Below are positions 1 to 30,884 of a stretch of DNA of 64,000 nt, piece by piece. How positions within the stretch are numbered: the stretch's first letter is position 1; every line of letters starts with the position of its first letter. This stretch comes from Spirochaetota bacterium. Its GTDB lineage: Bacteria; Spirochaetota; JAGLSM01. The notes under the pieces are model-generated. The model did not search any database and was not told the DNA's origin. It saw nothing but the letters and a program-made list of their open reading frames with translations. A program made the translations under genes and the position numbers. The stretch lies in the NCBI GenBank assembly GCA_030634165.1, contig DAOWBH010000001.1:7361-71360 (forward strand). The letters are read 5' to 3'.

Positions 1-704
1 ATACCAAAATAACTTACAACCTTTCCCATGACAGGCCATATAAGCTTAATTCTGCGGTTTCTCGGGATCCTTCCAAAATACCTGCGACTTTGTCTATTGT
101 AAGATTTTCTCCATCGTTTTCTTTTTAAACTTCTTCTTACAGGTCTTTTTCCAAATTTGCGTATAGGCAGCTTTATTCTCTGTCCGGGGTAAATCCTTGA
201 TCTGTTGAGTCTTTTTAAACTTATGAGACTGACCCTGTACCTTCTTGAGATCTTCCACAGAGAGTCCCCCTTTCGGACTCTGTACCAGCGCCACCTTATT
301 GATTTGGCGGATACTGATTTATAATGACCGGAAACATTGACCAATTGCCCAGGATAAATACGGACTGAAGACATACTGTTAATTTTTATAAAACGTCTTT
401 TTGAAATCGAAAATTTCCGGCATATAGACCAAACAGTATCTCCATGTCTAACCCTGTAATACCTTTTTTTTGCCGTTCTGACTCTTCTTGAAACCCTGCC
501 CGGTATTTTAAGAGACATTCCTTTAAATATTCTGCTGTTTTTTAAATTATTCAGGCGTTTTAATGAAGATACTGATATCTTAAACCGCCTACTGATTCTC
601 CAAACCGTATCTCCCTTTGAAACCCTGTAAATTCTCAATGAATAAACAGGAAAAGATAAATACAGCAAAAAAAACAGTAAAAAAAACATTAACGACTGTT
701 TCAT
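1..704 (-). CDS. LysM-repeat peptidoglycan hydrolase with the beginning of an M23 peptidase domain (NlpD/LytM-like). Partial: the C-terminus lies beyond the window start.
   Basis: Minus-strand ATG at 704 is followed by a hydrophobic signal-like N-terminus (MKQSLMFFLLFFLLYLSF). Three LysM-like motifs follow: YRVSKGDTVWRIS, YYRVRHGDTVWSI, YRVRKGDSLWKIS. Near position 1 the frame reads PVMGKVVSYFG, which is the typical start of an M23 domain. The frame stays open to the window edge. It is absent from the ORF track because no stop codon lies inside the window. Confidence 0.6.
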   Translation of the reverse strand, partial: MKQSLMFFLLFFLLYLSFPVYSLRIYRVSKGDTVWRISRRFKISVSSLKRLNNLKNSRIFKGMSLKIPGRVSRRVRTAKKRYYRVRHGDTVWSICRKFSISKRRFIKINSMSSVRIYPGQLVNVSGHYKSVSAKSIRWRWYRVRKGDSLWKISRRYRVSLISLKRLNRSRIYPGQRIKLPIRKFGKRPVRRSLKRKRWRKSYNRQSRRYFGRIPRNRRIKLIWPVMGKVVSYFG

Positions 705-796
705 CCGTGAATTTTTTTTTGATTCCATTCCGATTCTAGTATCGATAAAAATCAAACAAATTATAAATTTTTAAGGGATTTATTTAATGGATTGAA

Positions 797-1078
797 TCAA
801 TAAGTAACCTCAAAATCGCTATAATCTCGTCTATCCGCAGTATTTATACTCTTAATAACTTCATCAATCCTTGAAAGAGGAGGCCCTTGCTCAAGATAGT
901 TTAAAAACATTTTTATCTGCTCGGATGTTCCTTCTGCAAATGTTTCTACCGAACCATCGGGACGGTTACGCACATATCCTGTAAGCCCGAGACTTTTTGC
1001 CTTAATTACCGTAGAATAACGAAAGCCTACTCCCTGAACTCTGCCTTTTACAACAAAATGTCCGCTTTTGAATTCCAT
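797..1078 (-). CDS. acyP: acylphosphatase
   Basis: 93 aa. Carries the VxGxVQGVGFR acylphosphatase signature (KGRVQGVGFRYST) and a size typical for the family. Confidence 0.8.
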   Translation of the reverse strand: MEFKSGHFVVKGRVQGVGFRYSTVIKAKSLGLTGYVRNRPDGSVETFAEGTSEQIKMFLNYLEQGPPLSRIDEVIKSINTADRRDYSDFEVTY

Positions 1079-1102
1079 ATTTGTAAATACTTTCTTTTTC
1101 CT

Positions 1103-2437
1103 TTATTCAAAAGAATCTATAACCAGAGAAGCAAGGGAACTCCGCTCACTCTTCTCCAGTTTGACATGACCCACAATTGCCTTATTTTTTAAATGTTCAA
1201 CTGCATATGTTAGTCCATTTGAATTTGAATCGAGATACGGATTGTCAATCTGCTGGGGATCTCCGGTCAGCACGATTTTAGTTCCATGTCCTGCTCTGCT
1301 CAATATGGTTTTAATTTCGTGCGGGGTAAGATTCTGCGCTTCATCGACTATCAAATACTGGTTCGGAATTGAACGTCCTCTGATATACGTCAGAGCTTCC
1401 AGTTCCAGCAAATTTGTATCCATGAGATAGCGTATCCTCTCTTCCGGTTTTTTATCTCCATCTTCATTACCAAATAAAAACCTGAGATTATCAAATATCG
1501 GCTGCATCCAGTGTAAAAGCTTCTCATCTTTAGTACCGGGTAAATAGCCAATATCTTTACCCATAGGTATAATCGGCCTTGTAACTAAAAGCCGTTTGTA
1601 CTTATTAAGATCAACTGTTTTTTTAAGTCCGGCAGCAATAGCAAGAAGGGTTTTCCCCGTACCCGCAGGTCCAACAAGAGTCACAAGCCTGAGATTATCA
1701 TCCAGAAGAAGATCAAAAGCAAATTCCTGCTGAAGATTCAATGCCTTTATTCCCCATAACTCCTGTTTTTCAAAATTCAATGGAAGAATAGCCTTTTTTT
1801 TGCCGGAATACCTCCCTATAGCGGATTTTGAAGGACTGCTTAAGCCGCGGAATAAAAAAAACTCATTGTCAATCGGAGGTTTATCCCCAACCGGAAGCTT
1901 CTTCATGAATCCTCCATCCTTATAATAGTTGTCAATCAGGGAATCATCAATATCAAGTTTACACCATCCTTTATAGAGTACGTCATAATCTACCTTCTGG
2001 CTTTCAAAATCCTGGGAAGTTATGCCAAGAGCATCCGCCTTAATCCTCGCGTTTAAATCCTTTGATACAAAAATTACCTTCTTTTTCGGATGGTCGTTTT
2101 TTAATTTAAGGGCAACCGAGAGTATAGCATTATCAGCCTTTGAAACATTATCCAGGACAGCACTGATGGAATTATGCTTGCTGCTTGCTATCGCGACCTG
2201 AATGATACCGCCGTTTTTCATCTCCACACCAATGCCCAGCGATCCAAGAGTCCTGTGATAGTCAAGCTGTCGTGCAACCATTCTCGCGTTTTTTCCTTTT
2301 TCATCGTTGTATGACTTGAACGTGTCCAACTCCTCAATGACCTGTATGGGAATAACTATATGGTTATCATCAAAAGCCTTGAGGGCAAATGGATTATGTA
2401 AAAGCACATTAGTATCGAGGATGTAAATCTTTTTCAA
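1103..2437 (-). CDS. PhoH-family ATPase with an N-terminal PIN domain (YlaK/PhoH2-like)
   Basis: N-terminus ILDTNVLLHNP is PIN-like. A Walker A motif GPAGTGKT is present, and the C-terminal region is PhoH-like. Confidence 0.75.
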   Translation of the reverse strand: MKKIYILDTNVLLHNPFALKAFDDNHIVIPIQVIEELDTFKSYNDEKGKNARMVARQLDYHRTLGSLGIGVEMKNGGIIQVAIASSKHNSISAVLDNVSKADNAILSVALKLKNDHPKKKVIFVSKDLNARIKADALGITSQDFESQKVDYDVLYKGWCKLDIDDSLIDNYYKDGGFMKKLPVGDKPPIDNEFFLFRGLSSPSKSAIGRYSGKKKAILPLNFEKQELWGIKALNLQQEFAFDLLLDDNLRLVTLVGPAGTGKTLLAIAAGLKKTVDLNKYKRLLVTRPIIPMGKDIGYLPGTKDEKLLHWMQPIFDNLRFLFGNEDGDKKPEERIRYLMDTNLLELEALTYIRGRSIPNQYLIVDEAQNLTPHEIKTILSRAGHGTKIVLTGDPQQIDNPYLDSNSNGLTYAVEHLKNKAIVGHVKLEKSERSSLASLVIDSFE

Positions 2438-2447
2438 AAGGAACTCC

Positions 2448-4688
2448 TTACCATAGTTTTTTTATTTTTTTGGGGATGTATCTATTAACACTTTTTTTAA
2501 CAGCCTTTTTTGCGTCATCATTAATTTTTTTCTTCATTTTTCTTTCTTCATTTTTCAACTTTTGTTTTGCGGCATTCTGCTTCGAAGAAAGAGCTGATTT
2601 TTTGTTATTCTGCTTTTTATCCATAGCCCTTCCCGAAGCGGATGTATCTCCTGATTTACCCGTCTTCCCTTTAAAACTGCTCAATAACGAATCCATCTTA
2701 ATTTCTTTACCTATAAAGTTTTTTATAAATCCTTCGGCTTTTTTTGCGGCGACAGGAAGAAGTCTATTGATAACAGATTTACCGGCAATCGCGAATTTCA
2801 GTTTGTCGGTTCTGCCTGAAACGGAAAATCCCAATGAAAGGTCTTTGTTCCCGTCTTCAAAAAGCGATGTAAACTCACTCTTATTGTATTTCTTATCAGC
2901 ATGAAGCAGAACCTTTAACGATAGAGAATCATCAAGTCCGTAGTAACCGTCCATTCGGACCCAAAAATCTTTAGCTTTTATCTTGAGTTTATTAATAAAA
3001 ACCTTGCCGTTTTTAAATTCCAATGTACTTCTTGCCTCTTTAAAATCGAGCTTCTTTTTCAAAAATGGAATCTCAACCTTGTACTTTTTGGCAGCCTTCT
3101 CGATTTTATTAATCCTGGCGAGGAATACTTTTTTTAACCTTGAAGCGTATCCTGATACATGATTCTGAAAATTCTTGTTCAAGTTATTTATAAACCTGCT
3201 GAAACCTGTCTTTGTTCTTCTAATGATTAGATCAAGATCCGAAGACAGAGAACCCTTTAAGCGGTTTGTAGTCCTTTTAAAATCATTTCTAACCCTATTT
3301 ATTATGACCTTAGCCTGATTGATGTATTTAGATTGCTTTAGCTTATTTTTTGCTCCAGGATAAAGTCTTGTAACCTTATTAAATATTCGTTTAACCGAAT
3401 CGTTGAATTTTTTGAGATCCTTTTCAACCATTACCATTGACCGTGTCACATCTTTTGAAAAACCGGAAATAATCTTTTTGCGTTTGTTTAAAAGCTTTTT
3501 ATATCCTGATTTAAAAGCAGTCTTAAACCCAGCCGTAATTTTATCAAGATTAGCCTGAGCTTTTTTTGTAAAAGCAGTCATCCTTTTTTTCAGGAGAGTT
3601 TCAAAAAGATGAATCTTCTTTTTAACCGCGTCTTTAATTCCCTTGAAAAAGTCCCTCTTTAGTTCTTCAAGAAAGGATGAAGCTGCTTTTAAAAAATGCT
3701 GCCCATAAAATTTCCCGTTCTCTGCTTTGAATACAATTGAACCGGTTGGATTAATCTGACCGTTTTTATCGGTTAAAATTATATCTCCTTCTATTACCGG
3801 CTGTATATTGAATGTTTTATCAGTCTTTTTCCTGCCTCCCATAATTTCAGTTAAAGAAATTTGAAAGTTAAATTTAAGCTTTAACGGTTTTCTGGCGGGC
3901 CAGTTAAAATCTTCAATAAGAAAATCAAGATTGTCCAGTCTGTAACTGTTTTTAAAATGAGCTGTTGCCGTGTCATCTATATTAACCACACCATTTTTCA
4001 TACCAAGTTCGGATATATGAATAGCAAGAGGAAGAGAGATCTTGTTCTTTTGCTTCGGCGCAGGATAATGATTTATTGAAGCAAGAAGAATATTTCTGTA
4101 AGGATCCATCATGACAGTTTTTTTATAAACCGGAGGATTTAAAAGATCATCGATACTTGTAACAGACTTGTTACCAACTTTGAATCTTTTTATATTGATG
4201 GTCGGCGAATCAAGAACCGCTTTGTAAATCACAAGATTGCCCGTTAATATGGGAAGTATCTTGTACGAGAGAATAAACGACTTCATTCTAATAAAAGTAC
4301 CCTTCCCGTTTCTTTCCCTGATATGAAGGTCATGCAGGCTGATTCCTTTCAGTATAGAAACACTGAGACTCTTAATACTCACAGGCCTGTTCAATGCCTT
4401 GCTCATTTCTTCCTGCATGATTTTTCTTACTGTTTCATTTGGAAAAAAGAAGGTAATAAAAAGAGTCGTACATACGAGAAAAATCAGTATGGATGCTATT
4501 ATGTCAACAGGTATGCTGATTATCTTTTTTTTAATAAATTTACCGACAATACTGACAGTAATTAAAACAAGACCCGGAAAAACTCCCAAAAAACCAATAC
4601 CGGTCATCAGTTCATTACTTCCCGCCAAACCGAACATAACTATCCCGACAGCAAGCATAATTATTCCTATTAATAATCCTTTTTTCAT
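2448..4688 (-). CDS. AsmA-family, membrane-anchored, Lys-rich large protein
   Basis: Two N-terminal TM helices. The segment after them (ALNRPVSIKSLSVSILKGISLHDLHIRERNG) resembles the conserved AsmA N-terminal region. The rest is a long basic, low-complexity stretch. Confidence 0.45.
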   Translation of the reverse strand: MKKGLLIGIIMLAVGIVMFGLAGSNELMTGIGFLGVFPGLVLITVSIVGKFIKKKIISIPVDIIASILIFLVCTTLFITFFFPNETVRKIMQEEMSKALNRPVSIKSLSVSILKGISLHDLHIRERNGKGTFIRMKSFILSYKILPILTGNLVIYKAVLDSPTINIKRFKVGNKSVTSIDDLLNPPVYKKTVMMDPYRNILLASINHYPAPKQKNKISLPLAIHISELGMKNGVVNIDDTATAHFKNSYRLDNLDFLIEDFNWPARKPLKLKFNFQISLTEIMGGRKKTDKTFNIQPVIEGDIILTDKNGQINPTGSIVFKAENGKFYGQHFLKAASSFLEELKRDFFKGIKDAVKKKIHLFETLLKKRMTAFTKKAQANLDKITAGFKTAFKSGYKKLLNKRKKIISGFSKDVTRSMVMVEKDLKKFNDSVKRIFNKVTRLYPGAKNKLKQSKYINQAKVIINRVRNDFKRTTNRLKGSLSSDLDLIIRRTKTGFSRFINNLNKNFQNHVSGYASRLKKVFLARINKIEKAAKKYKVEIPFLKKKLDFKEARSTLEFKNGKVFINKLKIKAKDFWVRMDGYYGLDDSLSLKVLLHADKKYNKSEFTSLFEDGNKDLSLGFSVSGRTDKLKFAIAGKSVINRLLPVAAKKAEGFIKNFIGKEIKMDSLLSSFKGKTGKSGDTSASGRAMDKKQNNKKSALSSKQNAAKQKLKNEERKMKKKINDDAKKAVKKSVNRYIPKKIKKLW

Positions 4689-4710
4689 TTTTTCCTCCAG
4701 TATTTTAAAT

Positions 4711-6729
4711 TTATATATCTGTACCTTTTTCCCTTATAAAAAATAAACGAACATCTCCCGGACTCAGTTTATCCAGATGTATTTTCCCTTCAGCGTCCAG
4801 CTCTACGTGATTTTCAGCACCTGTCTTACAATCAATTTCATCAACAACAGCCTCATCAAATCCATATTCCTTAAACGGGAAAATTTCAAGATCATTTATG
4901 GACTTTTTTTTCTTTGTAATTTCAGGATAACAGACACACATCAACCTCATTTTAAAACCGTCTTCACGGTCAATAAACCAGACCGCATAATCTTCTTGAT
5001 ACTCTGCTTCCTTAATATATGAATTACTCAAAGCAGTCTTAAATTTATCGTATACATCCTCAATAGAATTGTAATATGTAAAAAATTCTTTATTGTTCTC
5101 CCATTTTAAAGAAACAGGTTTGTTATTGGCTTCATATAAACCTGATGTAAGATCCTGATTGCCGATAACCTCATATTTCGGTCTTCGGCCTTTTCCACAA
5201 TTGGTAAAACGGCTCAAAAAATACCTGACAAACATCCCTTTCCAGCCGAATCTCGCAGGATTCGAATTAATTTCAGGATGACCGGTATCATGACTGTCTA
5301 CCGCAAACTGAATCGAAATCCTTTTTGAAAAGCTGCTGTTGTAATCTGATAACTGTCTGTTTATATCTATTGAAGATTTAATAAAATTCACATCAATATC
5401 ACGAACCATGTCTCCGCCAAGTATAAGATCAAAGCCGACAGAACCATAGTCCTTAAAGTCATAACCCATCCGTTCAGCAAGTGCTCCGGTATACGGCATC
5501 GCCTTTCTTGCCTGCGATATTACATTTTTAAGCAGCACGGGAGTACATCTGTCTGATACAGGAATATCACTTGTTCCTTCAAGCACAGAATCAAAAACAT
5601 GGTCAACATAATCAATACGGACATAGTCAAATCCATATTTTTTCTGCATTTGCGGAAATATCGATGAAAAGAAATCAATCCCTTTCTGCCATGGGACAGG
5701 ATGGCTCCTGTGCGTCGGCATAGTATTTACGTTCAGCTTAGTTGAAAACTTAACAGGTGTAAGCATCCCGAAGGCATGGCCGCTTTGATCCTCGCCATTT
5801 CTGTCAAGATACTCAAACTCCGGATAATTATACTCATCATTGTAAATACTGAATTCAGGTAAACCCACACCTCCCCAGGTATGGCTGGGAATTGTCCAGA
5901 TTCCTTTTTTAACAAGCTCACTGATAATTGCCGAGTGAACCTCTGTGCTTTTCTGTGAATCATCATTCTCAAGATTTTCAATTGAGGCTTTGCCTAAATG
6001 ATCCTGTACTATCTTTTTGACCTTATTGGTAATTATCTTTTGATTAGCTTCCAAAAGCATCGTATCCTGATCAAGCTCATTGGCCAAGCCCTTTCTATTC
6101 CGCGCAAGTTCAATCCATCTGAAATATTCAGGATGAGTCAGAACAACCCTTGAGAACTGAGAGGTATGCGGCTCAAGATCAAAACCCACCGTCATACCTA
6201 AGGCGTGAATTGCATCGATAAAAATTCTAAGCTGATTTTCAGCTTTTAAGCCCATATCCTTATAATTTTTATCAATGACTTCAGAAGCTATAGCGGATAA
6301 TGAATCAACAGCATAAACATTCCCAAACACACAGTTAAAAAAAGGAGCAAGATGAATTGAATTAACCCTGAGAAGGACAAGAAGCTTTAACGCATCCATA
6401 AAGGTTCCGGGTTTGGCAGTTTCAAGTCCGACTGCTCTTACGTTTAAAAAACAAAAGTCGCTGTCACACATCCAGGAAGAATCCCTGTAATCAGACACAG
6501 GTGAAAGTAGTGCTTTTCCTTTTATATCCTTTTTTAATAGAAGAGTATAAAATAAAGCAAACAAATAATCGGGTAATTTTAAAGCTTCCTCGGGAAGAAG
6601 AGGGATATATCCGTTTTTAAGATACAGTTCTAACCATTCTTTGGCTTTTTTTTCAGTGTTTTTTTGAGAAGCTTTCCTGTTACTTGAAATACTTAAATAC
6701 TTGTCCCAATATTCAGGTAACTTCGACAT
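4711..6729 (-). CDS. alpha-amylase-family (GH13-like) glycoside hydrolase, divergent
   Basis: GH13-like conserved regions: NSIHLAPFF, IHALGMTVGFDLEPHTSQ (region I-like), GFDYVRIDYVDH (region II-like, with the nucleophile Asp). Substrate specificity is unclear. Confidence 0.45.
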   Translation of the reverse strand: MSKLPEYWDKYLSISSNRKASQKNTEKKAKEWLELYLKNGYIPLLPEEALKLPDYLFALFYTLLLKKDIKGKALLSPVSDYRDSSWMCDSDFCFLNVRAVGLETAKPGTFMDALKLLVLLRVNSIHLAPFFNCVFGNVYAVDSLSAIASEVIDKNYKDMGLKAENQLRIFIDAIHALGMTVGFDLEPHTSQFSRVVLTHPEYFRWIELARNRKGLANELDQDTMLLEANQKIITNKVKKIVQDHLGKASIENLENDDSQKSTEVHSAIISELVKKGIWTIPSHTWGGVGLPEFSIYNDEYNYPEFEYLDRNGEDQSGHAFGMLTPVKFSTKLNVNTMPTHRSHPVPWQKGIDFFSSIFPQMQKKYGFDYVRIDYVDHVFDSVLEGTSDIPVSDRCTPVLLKNVISQARKAMPYTGALAERMGYDFKDYGSVGFDLILGGDMVRDIDVNFIKSSIDINRQLSDYNSSFSKRISIQFAVDSHDTGHPEINSNPARFGWKGMFVRYFLSRFTNCGKGRRPKYEVIGNQDLTSGLYEANNKPVSLKWENNKEFFTYYNSIEDVYDKFKTALSNSYIKEAEYQEDYAVWFIDREDGFKMRLMCVCYPEITKKKKSINDLEIFPFKEYGFDEAVVDEIDCKTGAENHVELDAEGKIHLDKLSPGDVRLFFIREKGTDI

Positions 6730-6789
6730 TTTCCCCCACCGATCCTGTCCCTAGTATTACCAAAACAAGACTGTCTGTCAATTACTATT

Positions 6790-6833
6790 TTGATGTATTT
6801 ATCCCGATCTATCGATCGGGATAAATACATCAA
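6790..6833. repeat. 44-bp perfect palindrome with 20-bp arms and a 4-nt loop (TTGATGTATTTATCCCGATC-TATC-GATCGGGATAAATACATCAA)
   Basis: Read directly from the sequence. It shares a TCCCGATC/GATCGGGA core with a second palindrome at 7167-7210. Confidence 0.9.
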
Positions 6834-6996
6834 TTGGAAAATATGAATCAACATCAGAATTAGTTGCACATCCTAACAAACAAAATTTTAGATGGATAAG
6901 TATCAGTTGCACAACCTCATTTTTTTTAAAAAGTGTAAGATTATTCTGTCTTATCAAAATGATTTTACATAACCGGAGTCAAACAAAGCGGAATCA

Positions 6997-7142
6997 GTTG
7001 CAGAACTTGATTTTTTTGAAAAATGCACTGCTTGAGTAACTAAATATTCAACTAGAAATTAAATTTTCACCTGCACACAACTTTCTTTATCTAATTAATT
7101 ATATACGAGTTTGCATTTTCAAAAAAATCAAGTTCTGCAACA
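6997..7142. mobile_element. MITE-like 146-bp element, copy 1, with perfect 26-bp terminal inverted repeats GTTGCAGAACTTGATTTTTTTGAAAA / TTTTCAAAAAAATCAAGTTCTGCAAC
   Basis: The TIRs are exact reverse complements. The element has no coding capacity. Two more full copies lie at 30735-30880 and 40934-41100. Degenerate left-end fragments (GTTGCACA...) sit at 6863 and 6906. Confidence 0.8.
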
Positions 7143-7166
7143 TCCTCATAAGCCATATTTTACCAT

Positions 7167-7210
7167 TTAAGCATTTTGTCCCGATCATCAGATCGGGACA
7201 AAATGCTTAA
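7167..7210. repeat. 44-bp perfect palindrome (TTAAGCATTTTGTCCCGATC-ATCA-GATCGGGACAAAATGCTTAA)
   Basis: 20-bp arms and a 4-nt loop, read from the sequence. It pairs with the palindrome at 6790-6833 to bracket the MITE cluster. Confidence 0.9.
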
Positions 7211-7303
7211 ATAAAAAATCATTGATATATTCATGAGTTTGTTATAAAATCTAATTAAAGTATCTGAATAAGCCGATTCAAATACTTTAAGGAGGACTGC
7301 TTA

Positions 7304-8020
7304 ATGGATTTTTTGAAAAACACACTTGAAGAAATTGTAATTAAAAAAGTTGAACAGGGTTTTAAAGACAATCCTGATATATGTCAAAGTCTGCAATGTA
7401 AAAAAGATGTAGCTGTATTAATATTAAACAAAATAAAACCCAGATATATAATTTCAGCAAGAGGGATGCTTCACCAGGCTGCAAATACTGCAGAGCAAAA
7501 AAGAATAAGCAAAGAAATTGACTCAGTTCTTCCCTCAGCTTTGAAACAAGTAAATGAACATAGAAGACCTAACTTCGACCATAGTAAAACATCCGGTAAT
7601 CTTATGGATTCTTTTGGCAAAAAAGAAAGATTTACAATGACTGATAGTTTTTTTATCAATTTCCCATTCTTCCTGGGAGAAGTACGCGACAGGACAACGG
7701 ATGAAATAATTTCAGATGTTAAAGTCTCAATGAGTGCAAATGAGAAAATACTTGATGGATATGACGGAAACTGGCCCAATCCTTATGAAACATCCGACAA
7801 ATCCGGGGGTAAATTTGCGTTCTGGCCCAAGTCAATACCCACAGAAAATGATCAGGCCCACCCGGAAAACTTCGATTTTAAACTGATATTTGAGAGTAAA
7901 AAATACAAAACCAAGGAAATTTCCTTTTCAATAGAACTTGAACCCGAAAAATTTACGGTAAATTTTGTGAGGACCGATTATTCAAAGGACATGGATATTG
8001 TAGCACTGGATCCGAAGTAA
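7304..8020 (+). CDS. ComFB-domain protein with a roughly 150-aa C-terminal extension
   Basis: The N-terminal 85 aa (NTLEEIVIKKVEQ...NPDICQSLQCKKDVAVLILNKIKPRYI) match the late-competence ComFB fold signature, including the two Cys. The C-terminal 150 aa has no family I recognise. Confidence 0.6.
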   Translation: MDFLKNTLEEIVIKKVEQGFKDNPDICQSLQCKKDVAVLILNKIKPRYIISARGMLHQAANTAEQKRISKEIDSVLPSALKQVNEHRRPNFDHSKTSGNLMDSFGKKERFTMTDSFFINFPFFLGEVRDRTTDEIISDVKVSMSANEKILDGYDGNWPNPYETSDKSGGKFAFWPKSIPTENDQAHPENFDFKLIFESKKYKTKEISFSIELEPEKFTVNFVRTDYSKDMDIVALDPK

Positions 8021-8029
8021 GGGGGGGTA

Positions 8030-8067
8030 GTTCATTTTTTTCTTTTTTGTAAAAGAAAAAAATGAAC
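8030..8067. terminator. Putative bidirectional terminator hairpin with a 17-bp perfect stem, between convergent comFB-like and aroK
   Basis: GTTCATTTTTTTCTTTT-ttgt-AAAAGAAAAAAATGAAC. It is AT-rich but long and is flanked by T/A runs on both strands. A G7 run immediately follows the comFB stop codon. Confidence 0.4.
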
Positions 8068-8102
8068 AATGAAACTCTTCCGAAGTGTCTGACCAGGCTT
8101 TT

Positions 8103-8621
8103 TTACCCTAAATATTTCCTGTATTCATCCTCAATAATTTTTAAACATTCATCTATATCAAACGTACCTGTATCAAGAGAAAAATCGGAGGTCTTTTTGT
8201 ATAGCGGATTTCTGTTTTCAAGAAGATGTTCTATTTCTTTTTTGGGATCAAGCCTGGTTAATGACGGCCGATTTGAATCTCCGTAAATCCTTTTATAAAT
8301 TACGTCAACATCTGCCTGGAGCCACACCACAAATCCCGATTCCTTGAGAAATTCTATATTCTCCCCGCGGCCTATTATACCCCCGCCGGTCGCGATTACA
8401 GTATTATCACGTCTATTGATCTCTTTTGCGGATTCAGTCTCAAGGTCACGAAAATACTTTTCTCCGGATTCATCAAAAATTTCAGGGATACTTCGTCCTT
8501 CTTTCTGAACTATCCATTGGTCAGTATCCATCAAGTCCATACCCATTAGTTCAGCCAGTCCTGAAGCAAGAACGGTTTTACCGGTTCCCCTGTATCCTAT
8601 AAGTACAATATTATGCTTCAT
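8103..8621 (-). CDS. aroK: shikimate kinase
   Basis: 172 aa with a P-loop GYRGTGKT. The size and motifs are those of shikimate kinase. Confidence 0.8.
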   Translation of the reverse strand: MKHNIVLIGYRGTGKTVLASGLAELMGMDLMDTDQWIVQKEGRSIPEIFDESGEKYFRDLETESAKEINRRDNTVIATGGGIIGRGENIEFLKESGFVVWLQADVDVIYKRIYGDSNRPSLTRLDPKKEIEHLLENRNPLYKKTSDFSLDTGTFDIDECLKIIEDEYRKYLG

Positions 8622-19803: not shown

Positions 19804-20010
19804 GTGGTAACAGGTACAGTAAAGTGGTTTAATAATCAAAAAGGTTATGGATTCATCACACCGGATGATGAAAGCAGTGATGTTTTCGTTCACTATTCAA
19901 ACATTAGTTCTGATGGTTTTCGAAGTCTTCAGGAAGGCCAAAAGGTCGAGTATGAATTAGGACAGGGACGTAAAGGTCCTGAAGCAACCAATGTTCTCAT
20001 AGGTGAGTAG
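19804..20010 (+). CDS. cspA: cold-shock protein (CspA family). A GTG start is likely.
   Basis: RNP motifs [12 protein letters not shown] and VFVHYS. A GGAG lies 8 nt upstream of the GTG. A long 5' UTR is typical for csp genes. Confidence 0.85.
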
Positions 20011-20266
20011 TATTTTTAATTTTAATGAAAAATACTAAATAGTTCAGGTACACCGCTAAGCAAGAACGATTAGAGAACCTCTTTTTTGAGATATTCCTGG
20101 ATCTTCTTGCTTTACGGCGTTTATCCCAAATCGGTTTATTTAAATATAAATTATCAATTACTTTTAAGTTTATAATTAAAAAGAACTAAAAAACCTTCAT
20201 ATTTTCCTTTACAAGATCAATCAAATCTATGTATCCTTTTATGTAGTAAGTTAAGGAAATAGCTGG

Positions 20267-22330
20267 ATGAAAATACTAACCGGGCTTCTCACCGGAGCCG
20301 TTATATTATGCGCTTCATGTTCAACATTGACAACTAAACCGGCATTTTATCAAAAATATAATGCTCGAATTTCTTTTAATACCATAAATAGACATTCAAT
20401 TGACAATGGACTTGAAAAAACCATTAAAAACGCTAACAAACAACTGGCTGGCATTATAAAAATCCCCGACAAACTTAGAACCTTGGAAAACACATTAATT
20501 GCTATAGACGATATTTCAAATCTCTTATGGAGATTCGGGGGGCCTGTTTATCTGATGGCATATGTTCATACAGACAAAGCTTTAAGGGATAAGTGCCAAA
20601 AAACAATCTCTTCACTTGAAGCTTTCTCGACAGGACTTTTTTTAAATAAAAAACTATACAATGCCCTTCTCTTGTTCTCAAAATTACCGGAAGCAAAACG
20701 CCTCAAGGGAGAATATGCCAAATATCTAAAAGACAGTCTGAGATCTTTTAGAAGAAACGGTATGGGACTCAACAATAAAAAAAGAAAATCCGTCAGGTTA
20801 ATAAGAAACAAACTCTCCAGGTTATCCCTGGCATTTCAACGAAATATAAATGAATACAGCAATCCTCTTATTCTGAATCAAAAACAGATGCAGGGAATGT
20901 CCGAGGCCTATAAAAACTCAAGAAAACAGAAAGACGGAACATATAAAATCGATCTTTCCTACCCTTCTTTTTTTCCATTTATGAGATACGCGATGAACAG
21001 TGAAGCCAGGAAAAAGCTGTTATACAAATTCAGAAATAAAGCTTGGAAAAAGAATCCGTCTATTCTCAAACAGGTTTTAATTCTAAGAAAACAACTCGCA
21101 AATCTATTAGGCTATAAAAACTACGCTCAATATGTTCTTGAAACACGAATGGCAAAAAAGCCGATAACCGTTATGAATTTTGAAAACAAACTCGAAAAAA
21201 GCCTGCAAATAAAGGCAAAAAAAGATATAGCAATCCTGCTGAAACTAAAAAAAGATAAAGTTAATAAGAATGCGTCTTTAGTTAACCCCTGGGATATATA
21301 CTATCTCAGCAATCTGGCAAAAAAGACTTATTACAACCTTGACTCAAAAAAAGTCAGGGAATACTTTACGGTTCCAAATACCGTAAAAGGACTTTTTTAT
21401 ATTACGCAAAAACTCTATGGGCTTTCATATAAAAAAATAAAAAGCAAAAATGTCTGGCACAAGGATGTCAGCCTTTATGAGGCATACAGAAAAAAGACAG
21501 GAAAACTCATTGGAAGATTCTACCTAGACCTTTATCCACGCAAGGGTAAATACGGTCATGCGGCAATGTTTGGTTTAATAAGCGGTAAAAAAACAACCAA
21601 GGGATACCAGATACCTATTACAGCACTTGTCTGCAATTTTCCAAGACCAACAAAGTTAAAACCCGGCCTGCTTAGCCATAATCAGGTAGAGACCTTTTTT
21701 CATGAATTCGGACACTGTCTTCACGATCTGTTAACTAAAGCACGTATATCCTCATTTGCCGGAACTTCAGTTTCAAGGGATTTTGTAGAAATGCCTTCAC
21801 AAATGTTTGAAAACTGGGTCTGGTCTCCAAAGATTCTTTCAATTTTTGCAAAGCACTATAAAACCGGTAAAACTATCCCGGGCGCACTAGTATTAAAAAT
21901 GTTAAAAACAAGAAATTTCCTGTCAGGATACAATAATCTTGTTCAAGTATTTTATGGTAAATATGATATGACATTAAATACAACATTCAATCCTCAGGAT
22001 AAACTCTCAACAAGTAAACTATATATAAATATGAGACATAAGATAACAGGTATAAAACCATTATCACGAATCCACGCGGACGCATCTTTTGGTCATCTAA
22101 TGGGTTACGCAGCAGGATATTACGGATATCTTTGGTCAAAAGTATATGCCGAGGACGTTTTTAATGTCTTTAAAAAACACGGCCTGTTAAACAGCAGGAT
22201 TGGCAGAAAATTTGCCGATACTATTCTTTCTAAAGGTTCTACTGAAGAACCACAGAAGCTTTTATACTCATTTTTAGGAAGAAAACCCAATGATAAAACC
22301 TTTTTAAGAAAGATAGGACTAATTAAATGA
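20267..22330 (+). CDS. M3-family zinc metallopeptidase (oligopeptidase/Dcp-like), lipoprotein
   Basis: HEFGH zinc motif (FHEFGHCLHDL). Size and helical pattern fit the M3 family. N-terminal lipobox LCASCS. Confidence 0.75.
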   Translation: MKILTGLLTGAVILCASCSTLTTKPAFYQKYNARISFNTINRHSIDNGLEKTIKNANKQLAGIIKIPDKLRTLENTLIAIDDISNLLWRFGGPVYLMAYVHTDKALRDKCQKTISSLEAFSTGLFLNKKLYNALLLFSKLPEAKRLKGEYAKYLKDSLRSFRRNGMGLNNKKRKSVRLIRNKLSRLSLAFQRNINEYSNPLILNQKQMQGMSEAYKNSRKQKDGTYKIDLSYPSFFPFMRYAMNSEARKKLLYKFRNKAWKKNPSILKQVLILRKQLANLLGYKNYAQYVLETRMAKKPITVMNFENKLEKSLQIKAKKDIAILLKLKKDKVNKNASLVNPWDIYYLSNLAKKTYYNLDSKKVREYFTVPNTVKGLFYITQKLYGLSYKKIKSKNVWHKDVSLYEAYRKKTGKLIGRFYLDLYPRKGKYGHAAMFGLISGKKTTKGYQIPITALVCNFPRPTKLKPGLLSHNQVETFFHEFGHCLHDLLTKARISSFAGTSVSRDFVEMPSQMFENWVWSPKILSIFAKHYKTGKTIPGALVLKMLKTRNFLSGYNNLVQVFYGKYDMTLNTTFNPQDKLSTSKLYINMRHKITGIKPLSRIHADASFGHLMGYAAGYYGYLWSKVYAEDVFNVFKKHGLLNSRIGRKFADTILSKGSTEEPQKLLYSFLGRKPNDKTFLRKIGLIK

Positions 22331-23814
22331 CAGTTTATCAAAACGGAGACTCTCTAATTGTAGAAGTTTTTGATAAAATTTTGAGCAGGGAAATAACAAC
22401 CTTTGCATCACTGCTTGAATGGCTGGGTCCTCTTAAAGCTCCCGGTAATTCCAGAAATATTGCACTTTCAAAAGGATACAACCTTATTAAGAAATTGTAT
22501 TGGGGAGTTTTCAAGGACCTTAATCCAAAGGATTACCCTATACTATGGAATCAAATAGCTATTCAGAATACCAGGTATCGGACTGCAGGAGATCTTAAGA
22601 GAAGTCTCTCAATTTCAAATATCTTCATCTCACTTCTTGACATACATGGATATACCGCGTTTTGCCGTCAAAGTAAAAAAAATATATCCAAACTTCACGA
22701 ACTTGATGAATTTCTCAGTACATCCATAAAAAACATTGCTAAGACTTACGGCTGTATCGGAAACAGAGAAAGGGGCGACGAGATACTCCTTGTGGCCGGA
22801 AGTGCGCTTGATGCTTTACAGGCTACCTGTGAAATCATTCAGGTATTTGCAAAAGAAATATTTTTCAGCAGTAAGTATATCGAAAAATTTAAAACCGAAA
22901 TAAATAACTTTCTCCCAAAATTTAATATTTCTGCCGGAATATCAGGAGGAAATCTTAATACACCAATGATAATAACTCAAAAAGGAGAAATATCAGGTTT
23001 TCTTCTCAATGTTGCCGCGAGACTTCAGTCCCGTGCCAATAAACTTTCGCCAAAAGCAACTAAGGTAATCATTGCCAAGACGGTCCAGACTTCATTCGAA
23101 AGAGAAGTCAAAAAAAATCATTCACCTGATTTTACTTCTTCCCTGGCTTTTCTGGATAACGGACAAATTACTTTTAAAGGGACATCCATTGCTAACCTTG
23201 AGGTTATATTTAAACAGAAAAACAAGTTCAAGCTCAACTATGAAAGCGCTCTTGCCGAGCTGCTTACATCTCTAAAAAGAAATTCTTGGAAAGACAGAAT
23301 CCTTATGGACCTGCTTCAACTCATATCAAAGGTTAACAAAACTCTTCCATCATTTTCCTTAAAAGTGATACTTCCAAGTCTCAATGATAAGACTGTAACA
23401 AACGATATTATCAGACAAAAAATAAACGTAATAAAAAATTTATTCACTATCCATGAAGATTATATAGGAACACTCGAACGGCTGCAGGAGTTGATCTATA
23501 TATTAAAAAAAATACCGGATTTCGAACCTCTTGCTATTGAATACGCGACTGAAATAATAAAACGATACGAAATCGTTATACCCGATTTCAAGCATGACCT
23601 TGACAAAATCATCGAAGAAAACAAATCAATCCTTCTGTCTCCCGACGAAGTAAAAGTATATGACTACTTAATAAAAAACCAGAAAGCTCTCACCGTCCTG
23701 ATTAATAAAACGCGCCGCAGCCCTAATCTTCCCAAAAAACGAATGTTATGGCATACTCATATTGAAATGAAAAAAAATCAGCTGGACTTCAGTTTATTCT
23801 CCGGAAAACAATAA
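22327..23814 (+). CDS. Class III nucleotidyl cyclase (CHD) domain protein with an uncharacterised roughly 260-aa C-terminal helical domain
   Basis: Motifs: FISLLDIHGYTAF (metal-binding Asp), GDEILLVAGSA (second Asp), ISGFLLNVAARLQSRAN (Asn/Arg transition-state residues). The start overlaps the M3 peptidase stop by 4 nt (ATGA). Confidence 0.5.
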   Translation: MTVYQNGDSLIVEVFDKILSREITTFASLLEWLGPLKAPGNSRNIALSKGYNLIKKLYWGVFKDLNPKDYPILWNQIAIQNTRYRTAGDLKRSLSISNIFISLLDIHGYTAFCRQSKKNISKLHELDEFLSTSIKNIAKTYGCIGNRERGDEILLVAGSALDALQATCEIIQVFAKEIFFSSKYIEKFKTEINNFLPKFNISAGISGGNLNTPMIITQKGEISGFLLNVAARLQSRANKLSPKATKVIIAKTVQTSFEREVKKNHSPDFTSSLAFLDNGQITFKGTSIANLEVIFKQKNKFKLNYESALAELLTSLKRNSWKDRILMDLLQLISKVNKTLPSFSLKVILPSLNDKTVTNDIIRQKINVIKNLFTIHEDYIGTLERLQELIYILKKIPDFEPLAIEYATEIIKRYEIVIPDFKHDLDKIIEENKSILLSPDEVKVYDYLIKNQKALTVLINKTRRSPNLPKKRMLWHTHIEMKKNQLDFSLFSGKQ

Positions 23815-23818
23815 ATTC

Positions 23819-25747
23819 TTACTTAATCAGTGTTTTAATATTCTCTTCCATAACATTGGAAAAAATACCGCTGAACTTATCAGGATTATCCAGTTTTCCG
23901 CCTTCGGCAATCAACGCCTGATTGTAGAGTAATACTATATAATCATCTGTCTTTTTTCTATCCTTCACGTATAGCTCGTTTAATAATTTTATTATACTGT
24001 GGTCCGGATTTAGTTCAAAAATTCTCTTTGTTTTTGGAACATTCTGATTCATTGACTTCATAAGCCGTTCCATACTTGAACTCATCCCGAATTCATCTGT
24101 CACAAGACAAGCCGGGCTGGATACAAGTCTGTTGGATAATCTTACCTCTTTTACATTTTCATCCAGTTTCTTTTGTATTAATTCCAATAATCCCTTGAAA
24201 GAGTCCTGCTTCTCAGACAATGCTTTTTTATTACTTTCCTTTTCCTCTTCCGTTGAAGACAAATCAAGATCACCCTTAAGAACTGATTTTATTTTTTTAC
24301 CTTCATATTCATTCATGTGCTGAGAAATAAGCTCATCAATAGAATCAGTAAGATATAAAACTTCAAATTTCTTTTTATTAAATGCTTCAAGATGAGGCGA
24401 ATTTTCAACTTCTGCTCTGGATTCTCCGGTAATATAGTATATCTCTTTTTGATCTGAAGGCATATTCTTTACATACTCATCAAGTGATACATACTCGCCG
24501 GGTTTTGTTGATGTGCTTTCAAAAAGAAGAAGTTCCATTATTTTTTTCTGATTTTCAAAATCCGAAGCCAAACCTTCTTTGAGAATACCGCCAAGTTCCT
24601 TGAAAAAATCGAGGTACTTGTCTTTATCCTTTTCTTTCTTTTGAGCAAGAGTATCAAGAACCTTTTTAACCAGGTTTGTCTTTATCTTTGCAAGAAGCTT
24701 ATCCTGCTGCAGGATTTCTCTTGATACATTAAGCGGTAAATCAGAAGAGTCTAGAACTCCCTTGACAAATCTAAGATACCTCGGCATTAAGGCCTCAGCG
24801 TCATCCATAATAAATATCCGTTTTACATACAGGTGAATACCTTTGAATTTTTCAGCAGCAAACATTAAATCAAAAGGAGCCTTTGCGGGTATAAACAACA
24901 GGGCAGTATATTCGGTTACACCTTCAACCCTGTAATGTATTTTTGCATAATGATCTGTATAATCATGGGTCAGCTGTTTGTAAAATTCCTTGTATTCATC
25001 CTCTTTTACTTCCTTAGGCGAACGCGTCCAGATTGCTTTTTGGGAATTAAGAGTTTCTTCTTCTATTTCTTTTTTCGGCTCTTTTTCATCGTCTTTTTTG
25101 GGAATGTACTTCTCAACATCCATTAAAACAGGATATTCAATATAATCTGAATACTTCTTAACTATTGATTTTATTTCGTAGTCTTCAAGGTATTTTTTAA
25201 ACTCATCTTTAAGATGAATGATTATATCTGTACCTCTGGTTTTTTTATCAATCTTATCAATCGTGAAACTACCGGATCCATCAGATTCCCACCTGAAAGA
25301 TTCTTCTTCGCCTGCTTTTCTTGTTTCAACAATAACTCTTGATGAAACCATAAACGATGAGTAAAAACCAACGCCGAACTGTCCTATTAATTCAATTTGT
25401 TCCGGATTGTCTTTTTTTTGTTTAAGTGATTCAAGGAAGTTTTTTGTACCGGATCTGGCAATTGTACCAAGATTATTTAACAGTTCTTCTTCGTTCATAC
25501 CTAAACCATTATCGGAAATGGTAAGTGTATTACTCTTTTCATCCCTGATTATTTTTATTTTAAAATCAGACTTTTCATTTTTTAAAGACTTGTCACTTAA
25601 CATTTGGAGTCTTAGACGGTCACATGCATCAGAAGCATTAGAAATTATCTCGCGCAAAAATATATCCGGATGAGAATAAAGAGAATGTATAACCAAATCC
25701 AGTAATTTTTGAGTTTCTGTTTTAAATTTATGCTTTTTAGCTGCCAT
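23819..25747 (-). CDS. htpG: molecular chaperone HtpG (Hsp90)
   Basis: N-terminal ATPase signature [29 protein letters not shown] and a length of 642 aa. Confidence 0.9.
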   Translation of the reverse strand: [642 protein letters not shown]

Positions 25748-25773
25748 GTCCTGCTCCTGTTATTGTTTGCAGA

Positions 25774-25803
25774 AAAATACTAAACATATGCTTAGCGGTC
25801 AAG
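25774..25803 (-). promoter_or_regulatory. Candidate sigma70-like promoter for htpG: -35 CTTGAC, 18-nt spacer, -10 TATTTT
   Basis: Read on the minus strand. It lies 26 nt upstream of the ATG, with a GGAG RBS in between. Confidence 0.3.
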
Positions 25804-26307
25804 CAGCTTGAACATTCTTTCATTATTTATATTTTTTTATCAGGTTACAATCATTTTATAAACAGGTTTTATACATATTTCTTATTTAGCGCATTTTATA
25901 AGTATCTTTGGATACCTCTCTCTTATAGGTCTTTGATCTAAATTTTAACTAAAATCATGAATACTTATATCTTTTTTCATTTAAAATTCAAGAAAATATT
26001 TTAGAATTACAGTAAATTTCAGCTTTTTTTGTAATTTTCTTATATTTTTTTTAAAATTAATTGAATAAGAAAGCAAATTTAGAATTATCTACACCTTATG
26101 TACACCTGAATGGCGGAATGTATTAGGTGTCTAATCCTTCATAGAATATATATATTTCATGAAATATATTGAAAATGTGATAATATAATGATATACCAAG
26201 AAGGATTGATTTTATCACATAGATCCCGATTCACATTTTGAAATAATTGGATTCGGGACAATCTATGACAGAAACTAACTGATACAGAACTGCATCCTGA
26301 GGGTAAT

Positions 26308-29364: not shown

Positions 29365-29370
29365 TAACCT

Positions 29371-30459: not shown

Positions 30460-30605
30460 GGAAATTTCCTGAATATAGATTTTATAGATACATAAAATTT
30501 ACAACATATCCAAGAATAGTCTATATTTTGATTCATGTATGTCAAGCTCTTTATCCAATATATGCAACAATCGCATATGTCAAAAAAAGTACTTTCATAC
30601 ACCAC

Positions 30606-30680
30606 CTAACCCTATCCCTTCCCTTGTTCGCTTCGCAGGGAAGGGGAACGTTGAAAATTAATATCGAGCATTTTTTTGGA
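30606..30680. repeat. Dispersed hairpin repeat, copy A (CCTAACCCTATCCCTTCCCT-loop-AGGGAAGGG...TTGAAAATTAATATCGAGCATTT)
   Basis: Near-identical to copy B at 56648-56715 except for the hairpin loop (12 nt here, 4 nt in copy B), which is the part expected to vary if the stem is selected. Intergenic. Confidence 0.7.
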
Positions 30681-30880: not shown

Positions 30881-30884
30881 TTAT

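What the first reader, a model, noticed from the sequence alone, without database searches (positions are those of the whole stretch)
6790..7210. Two 44-bp perfect palindromes with a shared core bracket the MITE cluster in a divergent promoter region
The palindromes at 6790-6833 and 7167-7210 each have 20-bp perfect arms and a 4-nt loop. They share the core TCCCGATC/GATCGGGA. Together they bracket about 330 bp that contains the MITE copy and its fragments. Perfect 20-bp arms are too long for a typical operator. They could be a second small palindromic element family, boundaries of a composite insertion, or strong bidirectional terminators or insulators.
Basis: seen in the sequence. Interest (0 to 1): 0.55.

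Follow-up and report, generated by a model that had tools for sequence, protein, structure and literature searches.

The report
Hairpin junctions of a variable insert
Two long perfect DNA palindromes in an uncultured spirochaete mark the two edges where conserved promoter DNA meets a variable block of miniature-transposon debris, and each looks half host DNA and half inverted copy of it, which is unusual but probably has no regulatory role.

Summary
P1 (6790-6833) has 20-bp perfect arms. P2 has 22-bp arms (7165-7212), not 20. Both have 4-nt loops and the core TCCCGATC-N4-GATCGGGA. They are the longest perfect hairpins in the 64 kb.

They are not intrinsic terminators: no T-tract follows, and the arm polarity is the reverse of a terminator's. 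They are not a known RNA family and not an artefact, since they appear in independent assemblies.

They bracket extra DNA. Distant relatives have 149-214 bp between the same divergent genes; here there are 574 bp.

The decisive result is a second allele in a 99.2%-identical strain (L154). Its homology to the window stops exactly at 6801/6802, between P1's outer 12 nt and the core. Outside the core the arms of P1 and P2 match only at chance level (6/12). The core (8/8) and a 12-nt tail just inside each palindrome (11/12, inverted) are conserved.

Best reading (confidence about 0.4): the core hairpin plus tail are the inverted-repeat ends of a variable insert, and 12 nt of adjacent flank was copied in inverted orientation at each end. 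The main rival is a REP/REPIN-like pair.

Genome-wide copy number could not be tested.

The parts
6790..6833 (.). Palindrome P1: 20-bp perfect arms with the 4-nt loop TATC. It consists of the outer 12 nt (6790-6801), the core hairpin (6802-6821) and the inner 12 nt (6822-6833).
6790..6801 (.). Outer AT-rich part of P1's left arm (TTGATGTATTTA). This is conserved flank and is also present in the alternative allele L154, where no palindrome follows it.
6802..6821 (.). Shared core hairpin TCCCGATC-TATC-GATCGGGA: the first bases of the variable segment and the proposed left terminus of the insert.
6822..6833 (.). Inner 12 nt of P1 (TAAATACATCAA), a perfect inverted copy of 6790-6801.
   Evidence: interpretation by inference
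6834..6845 (+). Left tail TTGGAAAATATG, an inverted repeat of 7154-7166.
   Evidence: p = 0.0024
6853..6874 (+). Short fragment of a MITE end (ATCAGAATTAGTTGCACATCCT).
6892..6973 (+). Partial direct copy (left ~80 nt) of the GTTGCA-type MITE.
6997..7141 (+). Full 145-bp MITE with 26-bp perfect terminal inverted repeats (GTTGCAGAACTTGATTTTTTTGAAAA). Other copies lie at 30736-30879 and 40935-41100.
7154..7166 (-). Right tail: CATATTTTACCAT on the plus strand, ATGGTAAAATATG on the minus strand.
7165..7212 (.). Palindrome P2: 22-bp perfect arms with the loop ATCA. The 44-bp unit comparable to P1 is 7167-7210. The inner 12 nt are 7167-7178, the core hairpin 7179-7198 and the outer 12 nt 7199-7210.
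6753..6781 (-). Sigma-70-like promoter match (TTGACA-17-AATACT) for the 672-aa gene. Its -35 box lies 8 bp from P1.
   Evidence: a consensus match only; such matches occur at chance frequency window-wide
7222..7250 (+). Sigma-70-like promoter match (TTGATA-17-TAAAAT) for the ComFB gene. Its -35 box lies 9 bp from P2.
   Evidence: The relative L003 has TTGACA-17-TACAAT at a similar distance from its ATG (read by eye).
4711..6729 (-). Flanking gene: a conserved 672-aa protein with no Pfam domain.
7304..8020 (+). Flanking gene: a 238-aa protein with an N-terminal ComFB domain.

Best explanation
Each palindrome is a junction structure. It lies where conserved host DNA, just upstream of the -35 box of one of two back-to-back promoters, meets a roughly 400-bp non-coding, variable insert made largely of miniature-transposon debris.

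The true ends of that insert are an imperfect terminal inverted repeat. Each end is a 20-bp GC-clamped hairpin (TCCCGATC-N4-GATCGGGA) followed by a 12-13-nt tail (TGG(T)AAAATATG). Between hairpin and tail, each end carries a perfect inverted copy of the 12 nt of host DNA lying just outside it. That copy lengthens the stem from 8 bp to 20 bp (22 bp in P2, where 2 more bp pair, by chance under this model).

Shown: the anatomy, the polymorphism, and the breakpoint at the core edge.

Inferred: the inverted copies were made at the DNA level by fold-back or template-switch synthesis nucleated by the terminal hairpin. This is the known route by which imperfect inverted repeats become more perfect. 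It could have happened at insertion or during later replication.

The block sits in the 17-bp gap between the two -35 boxes, plausibly because that is the one place in a compact divergent promoter region where an insertion destroys neither promoter.

The palindromes are not terminators. Because a sister strain lacks P1, they are not indispensable operators either. Their likely effects are hairpin- or cruciform-prone DNA next to both promoters and a hot spot for rearrangement.
For: 1. Homology between the window and allele L154 (99.2% identical over 6.5 kb) ends exactly at 6801/6802, the outer-arm/core junction. L154 keeps TTGATGTATTTA but has no core and no inner arm.

2. Between P1 and P2 the core is 8/8 identical and the tails 11/12. 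The 12-nt arm segments are only 6/12 identical, which is chance level (P = 0.10 at 29% expected identity). This heterogeneity gives Fisher p = 0.015. It is what one expects if the arms are copies of two unrelated flanks.

3. The tails begin immediately inside the 12-nt inner arms at both ends (anchored alignment p = 0.0024). With the inner arms removed, the ends form a 33-column inverted repeat with 28 matches (my count).

4. All 42 stem pairs are Watson-Crick, with no G-T pair. This fits copying at the DNA level better than selection on an RNA.

5. The 423-bp block accounts for the length difference from relatives: 574 - 423 = 151 bp, against 149, 184 and 214 bp.

6. The Logan contig L001 starts at 7200, 1 nt inside P2's core/outer-arm junction. 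That is where an assembly-graph branch would fall if another haplotype diverges there (the branch is an inference).

7. [quoted passage not shown]
Against: Only one locus and one alternative allele were available. L154 is not an empty site. It carries 142 bp of different, MITE-derived DNA, so the direction of change is not established; a hairpin-stimulated deletion in L154 is possible.

No other copy of the core or the tail was found anywhere, so mobility of the insert is unproven. No target-site duplication flanks 6802-7198, and no transposase gene lies in the 64 kb.

Copies of exactly 12 nt at both ends suggest a fixed-length mechanism, which simple template switching does not predict.

A 13-mer identical to P2's arm sits inside the L154-specific DNA and is not explained by this model.

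The promoter assignments are consensus matches only.
Confidence: 0.4

Rival explanations
1. P1 and P2 are two copies, in opposite orientation, of a self-contained REP/REPIN-like hairpin element of about 56 nt (a 44-bp palindrome plus a 12-nt tag). It would be mobilised in trans, perhaps as single-stranded DNA. The stems diverged but stayed perfectly paired. The L154 allele then arose by a hairpin-stimulated deletion or replacement.
For: Both units are 20-4-20, with TT...AA termini and 14/20 identical arm positions. All six differences are mirrored in the opposite arm. The tails are inverted, as in REP dimers (PMC3733652, PMC3116915). P1 is flanked by TT/TT and the 44-bp P2 unit by AT/AT. L154's junction abuts a truncated MITE, which looks like a deletion endpoint.
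Against: No further copy exists in 64 kb. A more specific pattern (core plus TTT/AAA) found nothing in JGI metagenomes, and BLAST of the whole block found nothing in plasmids or phages. The unpaired GTAG or CGTC tag typical of REPs is absent, and the position upstream of divergent genes is atypical for REPs (PMC3733652). All the divergence is concentrated in the 12-nt arm segment while core and tail are conserved (Fisher p = 0.015). The L154 breakpoint would have to coincide with the core edge by chance, about 1 in 20.
Confidence: 0.25
2. The palindromes are cis-regulatory DNA. A dimeric regulator would bind the 8-N4-8 core upstream of both -35 boxes to co-regulate the divergent genes. Alternatively, or in addition, the perfect stems extrude as cruciforms under the negative supercoiling generated between divergent promoters and so tune or insulate them.
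For: The placement is symmetric, 8 and 9 bp upstream of the two -35-like hexamers. The perfect arms, 4-nt loops and AT-rich surroundings favour extrusion. A cruciform in an intergenic region that is attenuated by a regulator is documented in Vibrio parahaemolyticus exsBA/HlyU (PMC10325908). The intergenic region is invariant in four spanning assemblies.
Against: Strain L154 lacks P1 altogether yet keeps the same gene and promoter. Relatives with the same gene pair have no such site and no long hairpin. A protein-binding site does not explain 12-14 further perfectly paired, non-conserved base pairs. The position is equally well explained as the only spot that tolerates an insertion.
Confidence: 0.1
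3. The palindromes act as RNA hairpins. They would be 3'-end barriers, RNase III targets or U-tract-independent terminators for transcripts that start inside the MITE block, shielding the two promoters from read-through.
For: The RNA stems are very stable (-32 to -38 kcal/mol) and about two helical turns long. Canonical hairpin-plus-T-tract terminators are not enriched in this genome. A third perfect hairpin lies between the convergent ComFB and shikimate kinase genes.
Against: No T-tract follows on either strand. No outward promoter match was found inside the block. The 42 stem pairs contain no G-U pair and no mismatch, which is atypical for RNA structures under selection. No Rfam family matches. 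P1 is absent in L154.
Confidence: 0.07
4. The palindromes are a chance occurrence or an assembly artefact.
For: None. Contigs from de Bruijn-graph assemblers do tend to break near this region.
Against: Shuffled sequence gives stems of at most 13 bp. The sequence is identical in independent assemblies from several samples and pipelines that differ from the window by SNPs elsewhere.
Confidence: 0.01

Closest known systems
Bacterial MITEs (miniature inverted-repeat transposable elements)
   Same: A short, non-coding, AT-rich insert in an intergenic region, bounded by imperfect inverted-repeat ends. It is nested with copies of another MITE, absent from relatives and polymorphic between strains.
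   Different: No target-site duplication and no second copy were found. Each end starts with a self-complementary 20-bp hairpin. The adjoining host DNA is repeated in inverted rather than direct orientation.
REP / REPIN elements mobilised by RAYT transposases (PMC3116915, PMC3337134, PMC3733652)
   Same: Hairpin-forming extragenic palindromes with an unpaired tail at one end, occurring as a pair in opposite orientation. Stem changes are mirrored in both arms.
   Different: The units are 44-48 bp rather than 20-40 bp. There is no GTAG or CGTC tag. They lie upstream of divergent genes rather than downstream of genes. The spacer is 300 bp. No other copies and no RAYT gene were seen.
Ends-only derivatives (PATEs) of IS200/IS605 elements (PMC7290912)
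   Same: A short element with no gene and a hairpin at each end. The two hairpins share sequence, as expected if one enzyme recognises folded DNA.
   Different: IS200/IS605 hairpins are short and imperfect, and the elements have no terminal inverted repeats. Here the stems are perfect and the tails are inverted. No conserved target tetranucleotide could be shown.
Quasipalindrome template-switch mutation (PMC7202029, PMC3820800)
   Same: A mechanism that copies one arm of an inverted repeat onto the other and so extends perfect pairing. It explains the all-Watson-Crick stems and arms that match local flank.
   Different: Described events correct a few bases. Here 12 nt would have been added at each of two sites, and the length is identical at both.
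Cruciform-forming regulatory palindrome in Vibrio parahaemolyticus exsBA (PMC10325908)
   Same: An inverted repeat capable of forming a cruciform in an AT-rich intergenic regulatory region.
   Different: That site has a known binding protein (HlyU) and a short imperfect stem. Here no regulator is known, and the palindrome is dispensable in a sister strain.

Membership tests
Intrinsic (Rho-independent) bidirectional terminator | A GC-rich stem followed by a T-tract, with an A-tract in front for bidirectional action | tested here: not met
   The scan found no terminator-like site in 6500-8300. The arms are T-rich 5' and A-rich 3' (T minus A = +5 and +4). Among the 44 perfect hairpins of 14 bp or more in 1 Mb of other bacterial DNA, almost all have the opposite polarity.
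Intrinsic (Rho-independent) bidirectional terminator | Position downstream of a transcription unit | tested here: not met
   Both palindromes lie upstream of the start codons and of the likely -35 boxes of divergent genes.
MITE | Terminal inverted repeats | tested here: met
   In inverted orientation, 6798-6846 aligns with 7154-7202 over 50 columns including 3 gaps. The tails match with p = 0.0024. Core plus tail match at 28 of 33 columns once the inner arms are removed (my count).
MITE | Direct target-site duplication | tested here: not met
   No direct repeat flanks 6790-7212 or 6802-7198. Only 2-bp TT/TT and AT/AT repeats flank the individual 44-bp units, and these are not significant.
MITE | Multiple copies in the genome | tested here: inconclusive
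   No other copy exists in 64 kb.
MITE | Presence/absence or structural polymorphism between close strains | tested here: met
   The L154 allele lacks the left end and carries different DNA.
REP / REPIN | A 20-40-bp palindrome with an unpaired GTAG or CGTC tag (PMC3733652) | tested here: not met
   The units are 44-48 bp. The flanks are ACTATT / TTGGAA and TTACC / AAAAAA, and contain neither tag.
REP / REPIN | High copy number and an associated RAYT gene | tested here: inconclusive
   No further copy and no Y1/HUH transposase gene occur in 64 kb.
IS200/IS605 ends-only element (PATE) | A hairpin at each end, no terminal inverted repeats and no target duplication (PMC7290912) | tested here: inconclusive
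   Hairpins at both ends and the absence of a duplication fit. The inverted tails and the perfect 20-22-bp stems do not fit.
IS200/IS605 ends-only element (PATE) | Insertion 3' of a fixed tetra- or pentanucleotide | tested here: inconclusive
   TTAC lies 4 nt to the left of P1 and 1-3 nt to the left of P2. However, similarity between the two left flanks is not significant (p = 0.25).
Invertible promoter segment (inverton) | Both orientations present in the population and a recombinase gene nearby | tested here: not met
   All four spanning assemblies are colinear with the window. No recombinase gene lies in the window.
Site-specific recombinase core sites (lox/FRT/hix type) | Identical central spacer in partner sites and identical protein-binding arms | tested here: not met
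   The spacers are TATC and ATCA (or TGAT on the other strand). The arms beyond 8 bp differ at 6 of 12 positions.
Replicated hairpin-telomere / telomere-resolvase site | Perfect two-fold symmetry through the centre | tested here: not met
   The 4-nt centres are asymmetric.
Known RNA family (Rfam 15) | A match at the family's gathering score | tested here: not met
   No match at gathering thresholds in the whole window. In E-value mode nearly all matches over the palindromes are generic miRNA-precursor hairpin families, all far below threshold.

The most novel reading that the evidence does not exclude
The ends of this element build their long hairpins by copying a fixed 12 nt of host flank in inverted orientation at both junctions. 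That would be an 'inverted target-site duplication', a junction footprint not described for any bacterial transposon family. It would imply an insertion or repair step in which a hairpin-tipped DNA end folds back and primes on the target.
Probability: 0.15. Interest if true: 0.7.

Novelty: new variant of a known kind. Interest (0 to 1): 0.42.

Why it matters
If the reading is right, these perfect palindromes are not designed regulatory sites. They are by-products of how a small hairpin-tipped mobile element joins to, or is replicated next to, host DNA.

That gives a concrete, testable example of how long perfect palindromes can arise in a compact bacterial genome, where they are rare and destabilising. 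It also shows that a 17-bp gap between two back-to-back promoters can act as a landing pad for nested mobile DNA, and that this DNA differs between strains that are 99% identical.

If the 12-nt inverted flank copies prove to be a regular feature of other copies, it would point to an undescribed insertion mechanism. If not, this is one more lineage-specific small repeat.

Tried and rejected
1. The core pattern scanned in viral contigs gave 11 hits, which are short stems or ordinary terminators.

Every long-armed hit had A-tract/stem/T-tract terminator polarity, and none resembled P1 or P2.

3. The more specific pattern TTTNTCCCGATCNNNNGATCGGGANAAA in JGI metagenomes gave 0 hits. The MITE terminal-repeat pattern there gave 9 chance hits.

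4. BLAST of the block against plasmids and phages found nothing. Rfam found nothing. A full-text search for TCCCGATC returned only unrelated papers among those listed.

5. DNA uptake sequence or methylation-site cluster: the 7-mer CCCGATC is not enriched (6 observed against 3.4 expected), and GATC is slightly under-represented.

6. Operator conserved in relatives: no comparable inverted repeat occurs in the orthologous regions.

7. Excision footprints made of palindromic P-nucleotides, or telomere-resolution sites: rejected because the 4-nt centres are asymmetric.

8. Inversion between P1 and P2 as the origin of the L154 allele: rejected because L154 has no core at all.

9. Simple insertion of core plus inner arm into an L154-like sequence: not supported. 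The DNA after TTGATGTATTTA in L154 is not significantly similar to the DNA after P1 in the window (p = 0.09-0.24).

Full report
**1. Observation**

P1 (6790-6833) has 20-bp perfectly complementary arms and the loop TATC.

Both carry TCCCGATC-N4-GATCGGGA next to the loop. That pattern occurs nowhere else in the window even with three mismatches allowed (0.11 expected).

They are the longest perfect hairpins in 64 kb, and shuffled sequence gives at most 13 bp. As single strands they fold at -32 to -38 kcal/mol as RNA and -20 to -25 kcal/mol as DNA, with z-scores of -8.5 to -14.

They bracket 331 bp containing three pieces of one MITE family:
- a complete 145-bp MITE (6997-7141) with 26-bp perfect terminal repeats, which has two other copies at 30736 and 40935;
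- a partial direct copy (6892-6973);
- an end fragment (6853-6874).

**2. Context and organism**

The flanking genes diverge. One encodes a 672-aa protein with no Pfam domain (4711-6729, minus strand). The other encodes a 238-aa ComFB-domain protein (7304-8020, plus strand).

The 672-aa protein is identical to MCK4907005.1 from an uncultured 'Spirochaetes bacterium' MAG (GCA_023135745.1). More distant homologues are mainly from Spirochaetota and Brevinematia MAGs.

The rest of the window is ordinary chromosome: his, arg, dap and aro genes, recA, scpAB and rpsA. It contains no transposase, recombinase or HUH gene. No tRNA and no Rfam family were found.

**3. Real, and extra relative to relatives**

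Four other assemblies of the same species span the whole intergenic region. They are one NCBI MAG and three ENA metagenome scaffolds. They differ from the window by 8-24 SNPs elsewhere, yet are identical over all 574 intergenic bases. P2 is also present in two further contigs of a strain about 1.2% diverged in ComFB.

The nearest other species are distant (55-61% amino-acid identity). They keep the same divergent gene pair with 149, 184 and 214 bp between the genes, and they have no long hairpins. Here the spacer is 574 bp, and removing 6790-7212 leaves 151 bp.

**4. Not terminators**

No T-tract follows either hairpin on either strand, and the scan finds no terminator-like site.

The 5' arms are T-rich and the 3' arms A-rich. 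The reference-genome hits that share the same core and have long arms all show the A-tract/stem/T-tract polarity of bidirectional terminators. In 1 Mb of other bacterial DNA, 39 of 44 perfect hairpins of at least 14 bp do not have a T-rich 5' arm, and only one is as strongly reversed as P1 and P2.

The best sigma-70-like matches in the region lie outside the palindromes and point outwards:
- TTGACA-17-AATACT at 6781-6753 on the minus strand, with 8 bp between P1 and the -35 box;
- TTGATA-17-TAAAAT at 7222-7250 on the plus strand, with 9 bp between P2 and the -35 box.

These are consensus matches only, and such matches occur at shuffle frequency across the window. They do sit where each gene needs a promoter, and by eye the relative L003 has TTGACA-17-TACAAT at a similar distance from its ATG. 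Without the block, the two -35 boxes would be 17 bp apart.

**5. Anatomy of the two palindromes**

Treated as 44-bp units, P1 and P2 share 14 of 20 arm positions. These are the 8-bp core plus 6 of the 12 outer positions. All six differences are mirrored in the opposite arm, and there is no G-T pair or mismatch in either stem.

Six of 12 is what unrelated AT-rich 12-mers give (P = 0.10).

Just inside each palindrome lies a tail: TTGGAAAATATG after P1 and, inverted, ATGGTAAAATATG before P2. The tails match at 11 of 12 positions plus one gap. In an alignment anchored at the palindrome edge, this gives p = 0.0024 against intergenic 16-mers.

So similarity between the two ends is high in the core and the tail and at chance level in the 12 nt between them (Fisher p = 0.015).

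**6. A second allele**

L154 is a scaffold from another sample of the same study and represents the most divergent strain (99.2% identity, 52 SNPs over window 315-6801). It matches the window up to 6801, which includes the promoter region and TTGATGTATTTA. It then departs exactly where the core begins.

Next come 142 bp that are absent from the window. Most of this is an inverted, truncated, degenerate copy of the GTTGCA MITE. Homology then resumes for 79 bp at window 6977-7055 (96%). After that the contig leaves the window's sequence again, inside the MITE.

Three conclusions follow:
- The centre of this intergenic region is structurally polymorphic within the species.
- P1 is not needed by the neighbouring gene.
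- The outer 12 nt of P1 belong to the conserved flank, while the core and inner arm belong to the variable DNA.

On the other side, the Logan contig L001 begins at 7200, one base inside P2's core/outer-arm junction. That is where a de Bruijn graph would branch if another haplotype diverges there. This is an inference, not an observation.

**7. Best explanation (confidence about 0.4)**

The variable insert ends on each side in a 20-bp GC-clamped hairpin plus a 12-nt tail. Together these form an imperfect terminal inverted repeat, with 28 of 33 columns identical once the inner arms are taken out.

Between hairpin and tail, each end carries a perfect inverted copy of the 12 nt of flank just outside: 6822-6833 copies 6790-6801, and 7167-7178 copies 7199-7210.

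The simplest known process is intramolecular template switching at a hairpin, which extends identity between the arms of an inverted repeat (PMC7202029, PMC3820800). This accounts for the shared core, the unrelated but perfectly paired arms, the absence of G-T pairs, the tails starting right after the inner arms, and the L154 breakpoint.

It does not explain why both copies are exactly 12 nt. It also does not explain why a 13-mer identical to P2's arm lies within the L154-specific MITE remnant and also ends at the arm/core boundary.

The location is explained by tolerance: the gap between two back-to-back -35 boxes is the one place where about 400 bp can be inserted without breaking a promoter.

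**8. Rivals**

- **REP/REPIN-like pair (0.25).** Two self-contained 56-nt hairpin elements in opposite orientation, with L154 derived by a hairpin-stimulated deletion. In favour: the mirrored changes, the equal 20-4-20 size, and the truncated MITE at L154's junction. Against: the concentration of divergence in the 12-nt arm segment, the coincidence of the breakpoint with the core edge, the missing GTAG/CGTC tag and atypical position (PMC3733652), and the absence of other copies.
- **Regulatory operator or cruciform (0.1).** The placement is symmetric, and there is a precedent in Vibrio (PMC10325908). Against: P1 is absent in L154, and relatives lack any such site.
- **RNA hairpins (0.07).** Against: no inward promoter, no U-tract and no G-U pairs.
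- **Artefact or chance (0.01).** Excluded.

**9. What could not be done**

JGI metagenomes do not contain this species.

Genome-wide copy number is the key test between the best explanation and its main rival, and it remains open.

**10. Verdict**

The 'terminator' reading is rejected. The 'palindromic element family' reading is untested.

I class it as a new variant of a known kind: a small non-autonomous mobile or repeat DNA with unusual hairpin junctions. It is of moderate interest.

Noticed in passing
window 8030-8067: A third perfect palindrome (17-bp arms, loop TTGT, an almost pure T 5' arm and A 3' arm, no shared core). It lies between the convergent ComFB stop (8020) and shikimate kinase stop (8103). 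Relatives have 0-26 bp there against 82 bp here. It is identical in strain L001. It has the same reversed polarity as P1 and P2 and no T-tract.
   Followed up: partly
window 7255-7290: A 14-pair hairpin (1 mismatch, 6-nt loop) in the likely 5' UTR of the ComFB gene, ending directly at the GGAGG ribosome-binding site. All four long hairpins of the 64-kb window lie within 1.3 kb around this one gene.
   Followed up: partly
window 6997-7141, 30736-30879, 40935-41100: A 145-bp MITE family with 26-30-bp terminal repeats (GTTGCAGAACTTGATTTTTTTGAAAA) and about 76% identity between copies. Two copies abut the stop codons of minus-strand genes. No consistent target duplication was seen, and the terminal-repeat pattern gave only chance hits in JGI metagenomes.
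   Followed up: partly
L154 227-239 (plus strand of the locus; 6518-6530 of its reverse complement): A 13-mer TTTAAGCATTTTG identical to P2's arm, ending exactly at the position of the arm/core boundary. It lies inside the allele-specific inverted MITE remnant, 30 nt from the P1 outer-arm sequence. It is unexplained.
   Followed up: partly
window 30604-30680 and 56651-56720: Another two-copy repeat of about 75 bp, with a GC-rich hairpin (CCCTTCCC...GGGAAGGG) followed by GTTGAAAATTAATnTCGAGCATTT. Both copies lie between same-strand genes.
   Followed up: no
window 1-60000: Canonical hairpin-plus-T-tract terminator matches and sigma-70-like promoter matches are both close to shuffle level over 60 kb. 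The excess exceeds 2 sd only for terminator-like sites in 20001-40000. This organism may not rely on classical intrinsic terminators.
   Followed up: no
window 7584-7891: SNPs between strains cluster in the C-terminal half of the ComFB gene (10-11 differences in about 300 bp in L001 and L002), while the adjacent intergenic DNA is invariant among strains carrying the window's allele.
   Followed up: no
window 4711-6729: The 672-aa protein has no Pfam domain. It lies divergently next to the ComFB gene in the three related MAG contigs where both genes could be read (L003/L004, L005, L137), and it has homologues in many Spirochaetota and Brevinematia MAGs. This is a conserved gene pair of unknown function.
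   Followed up: no
whole window: CTAG (16 observed against 54-212 expected) and ACGT (48 against 62-212 expected) are under-represented. GATC is only mildly under-represented (186 against 212-244 expected).
   Followed up: no
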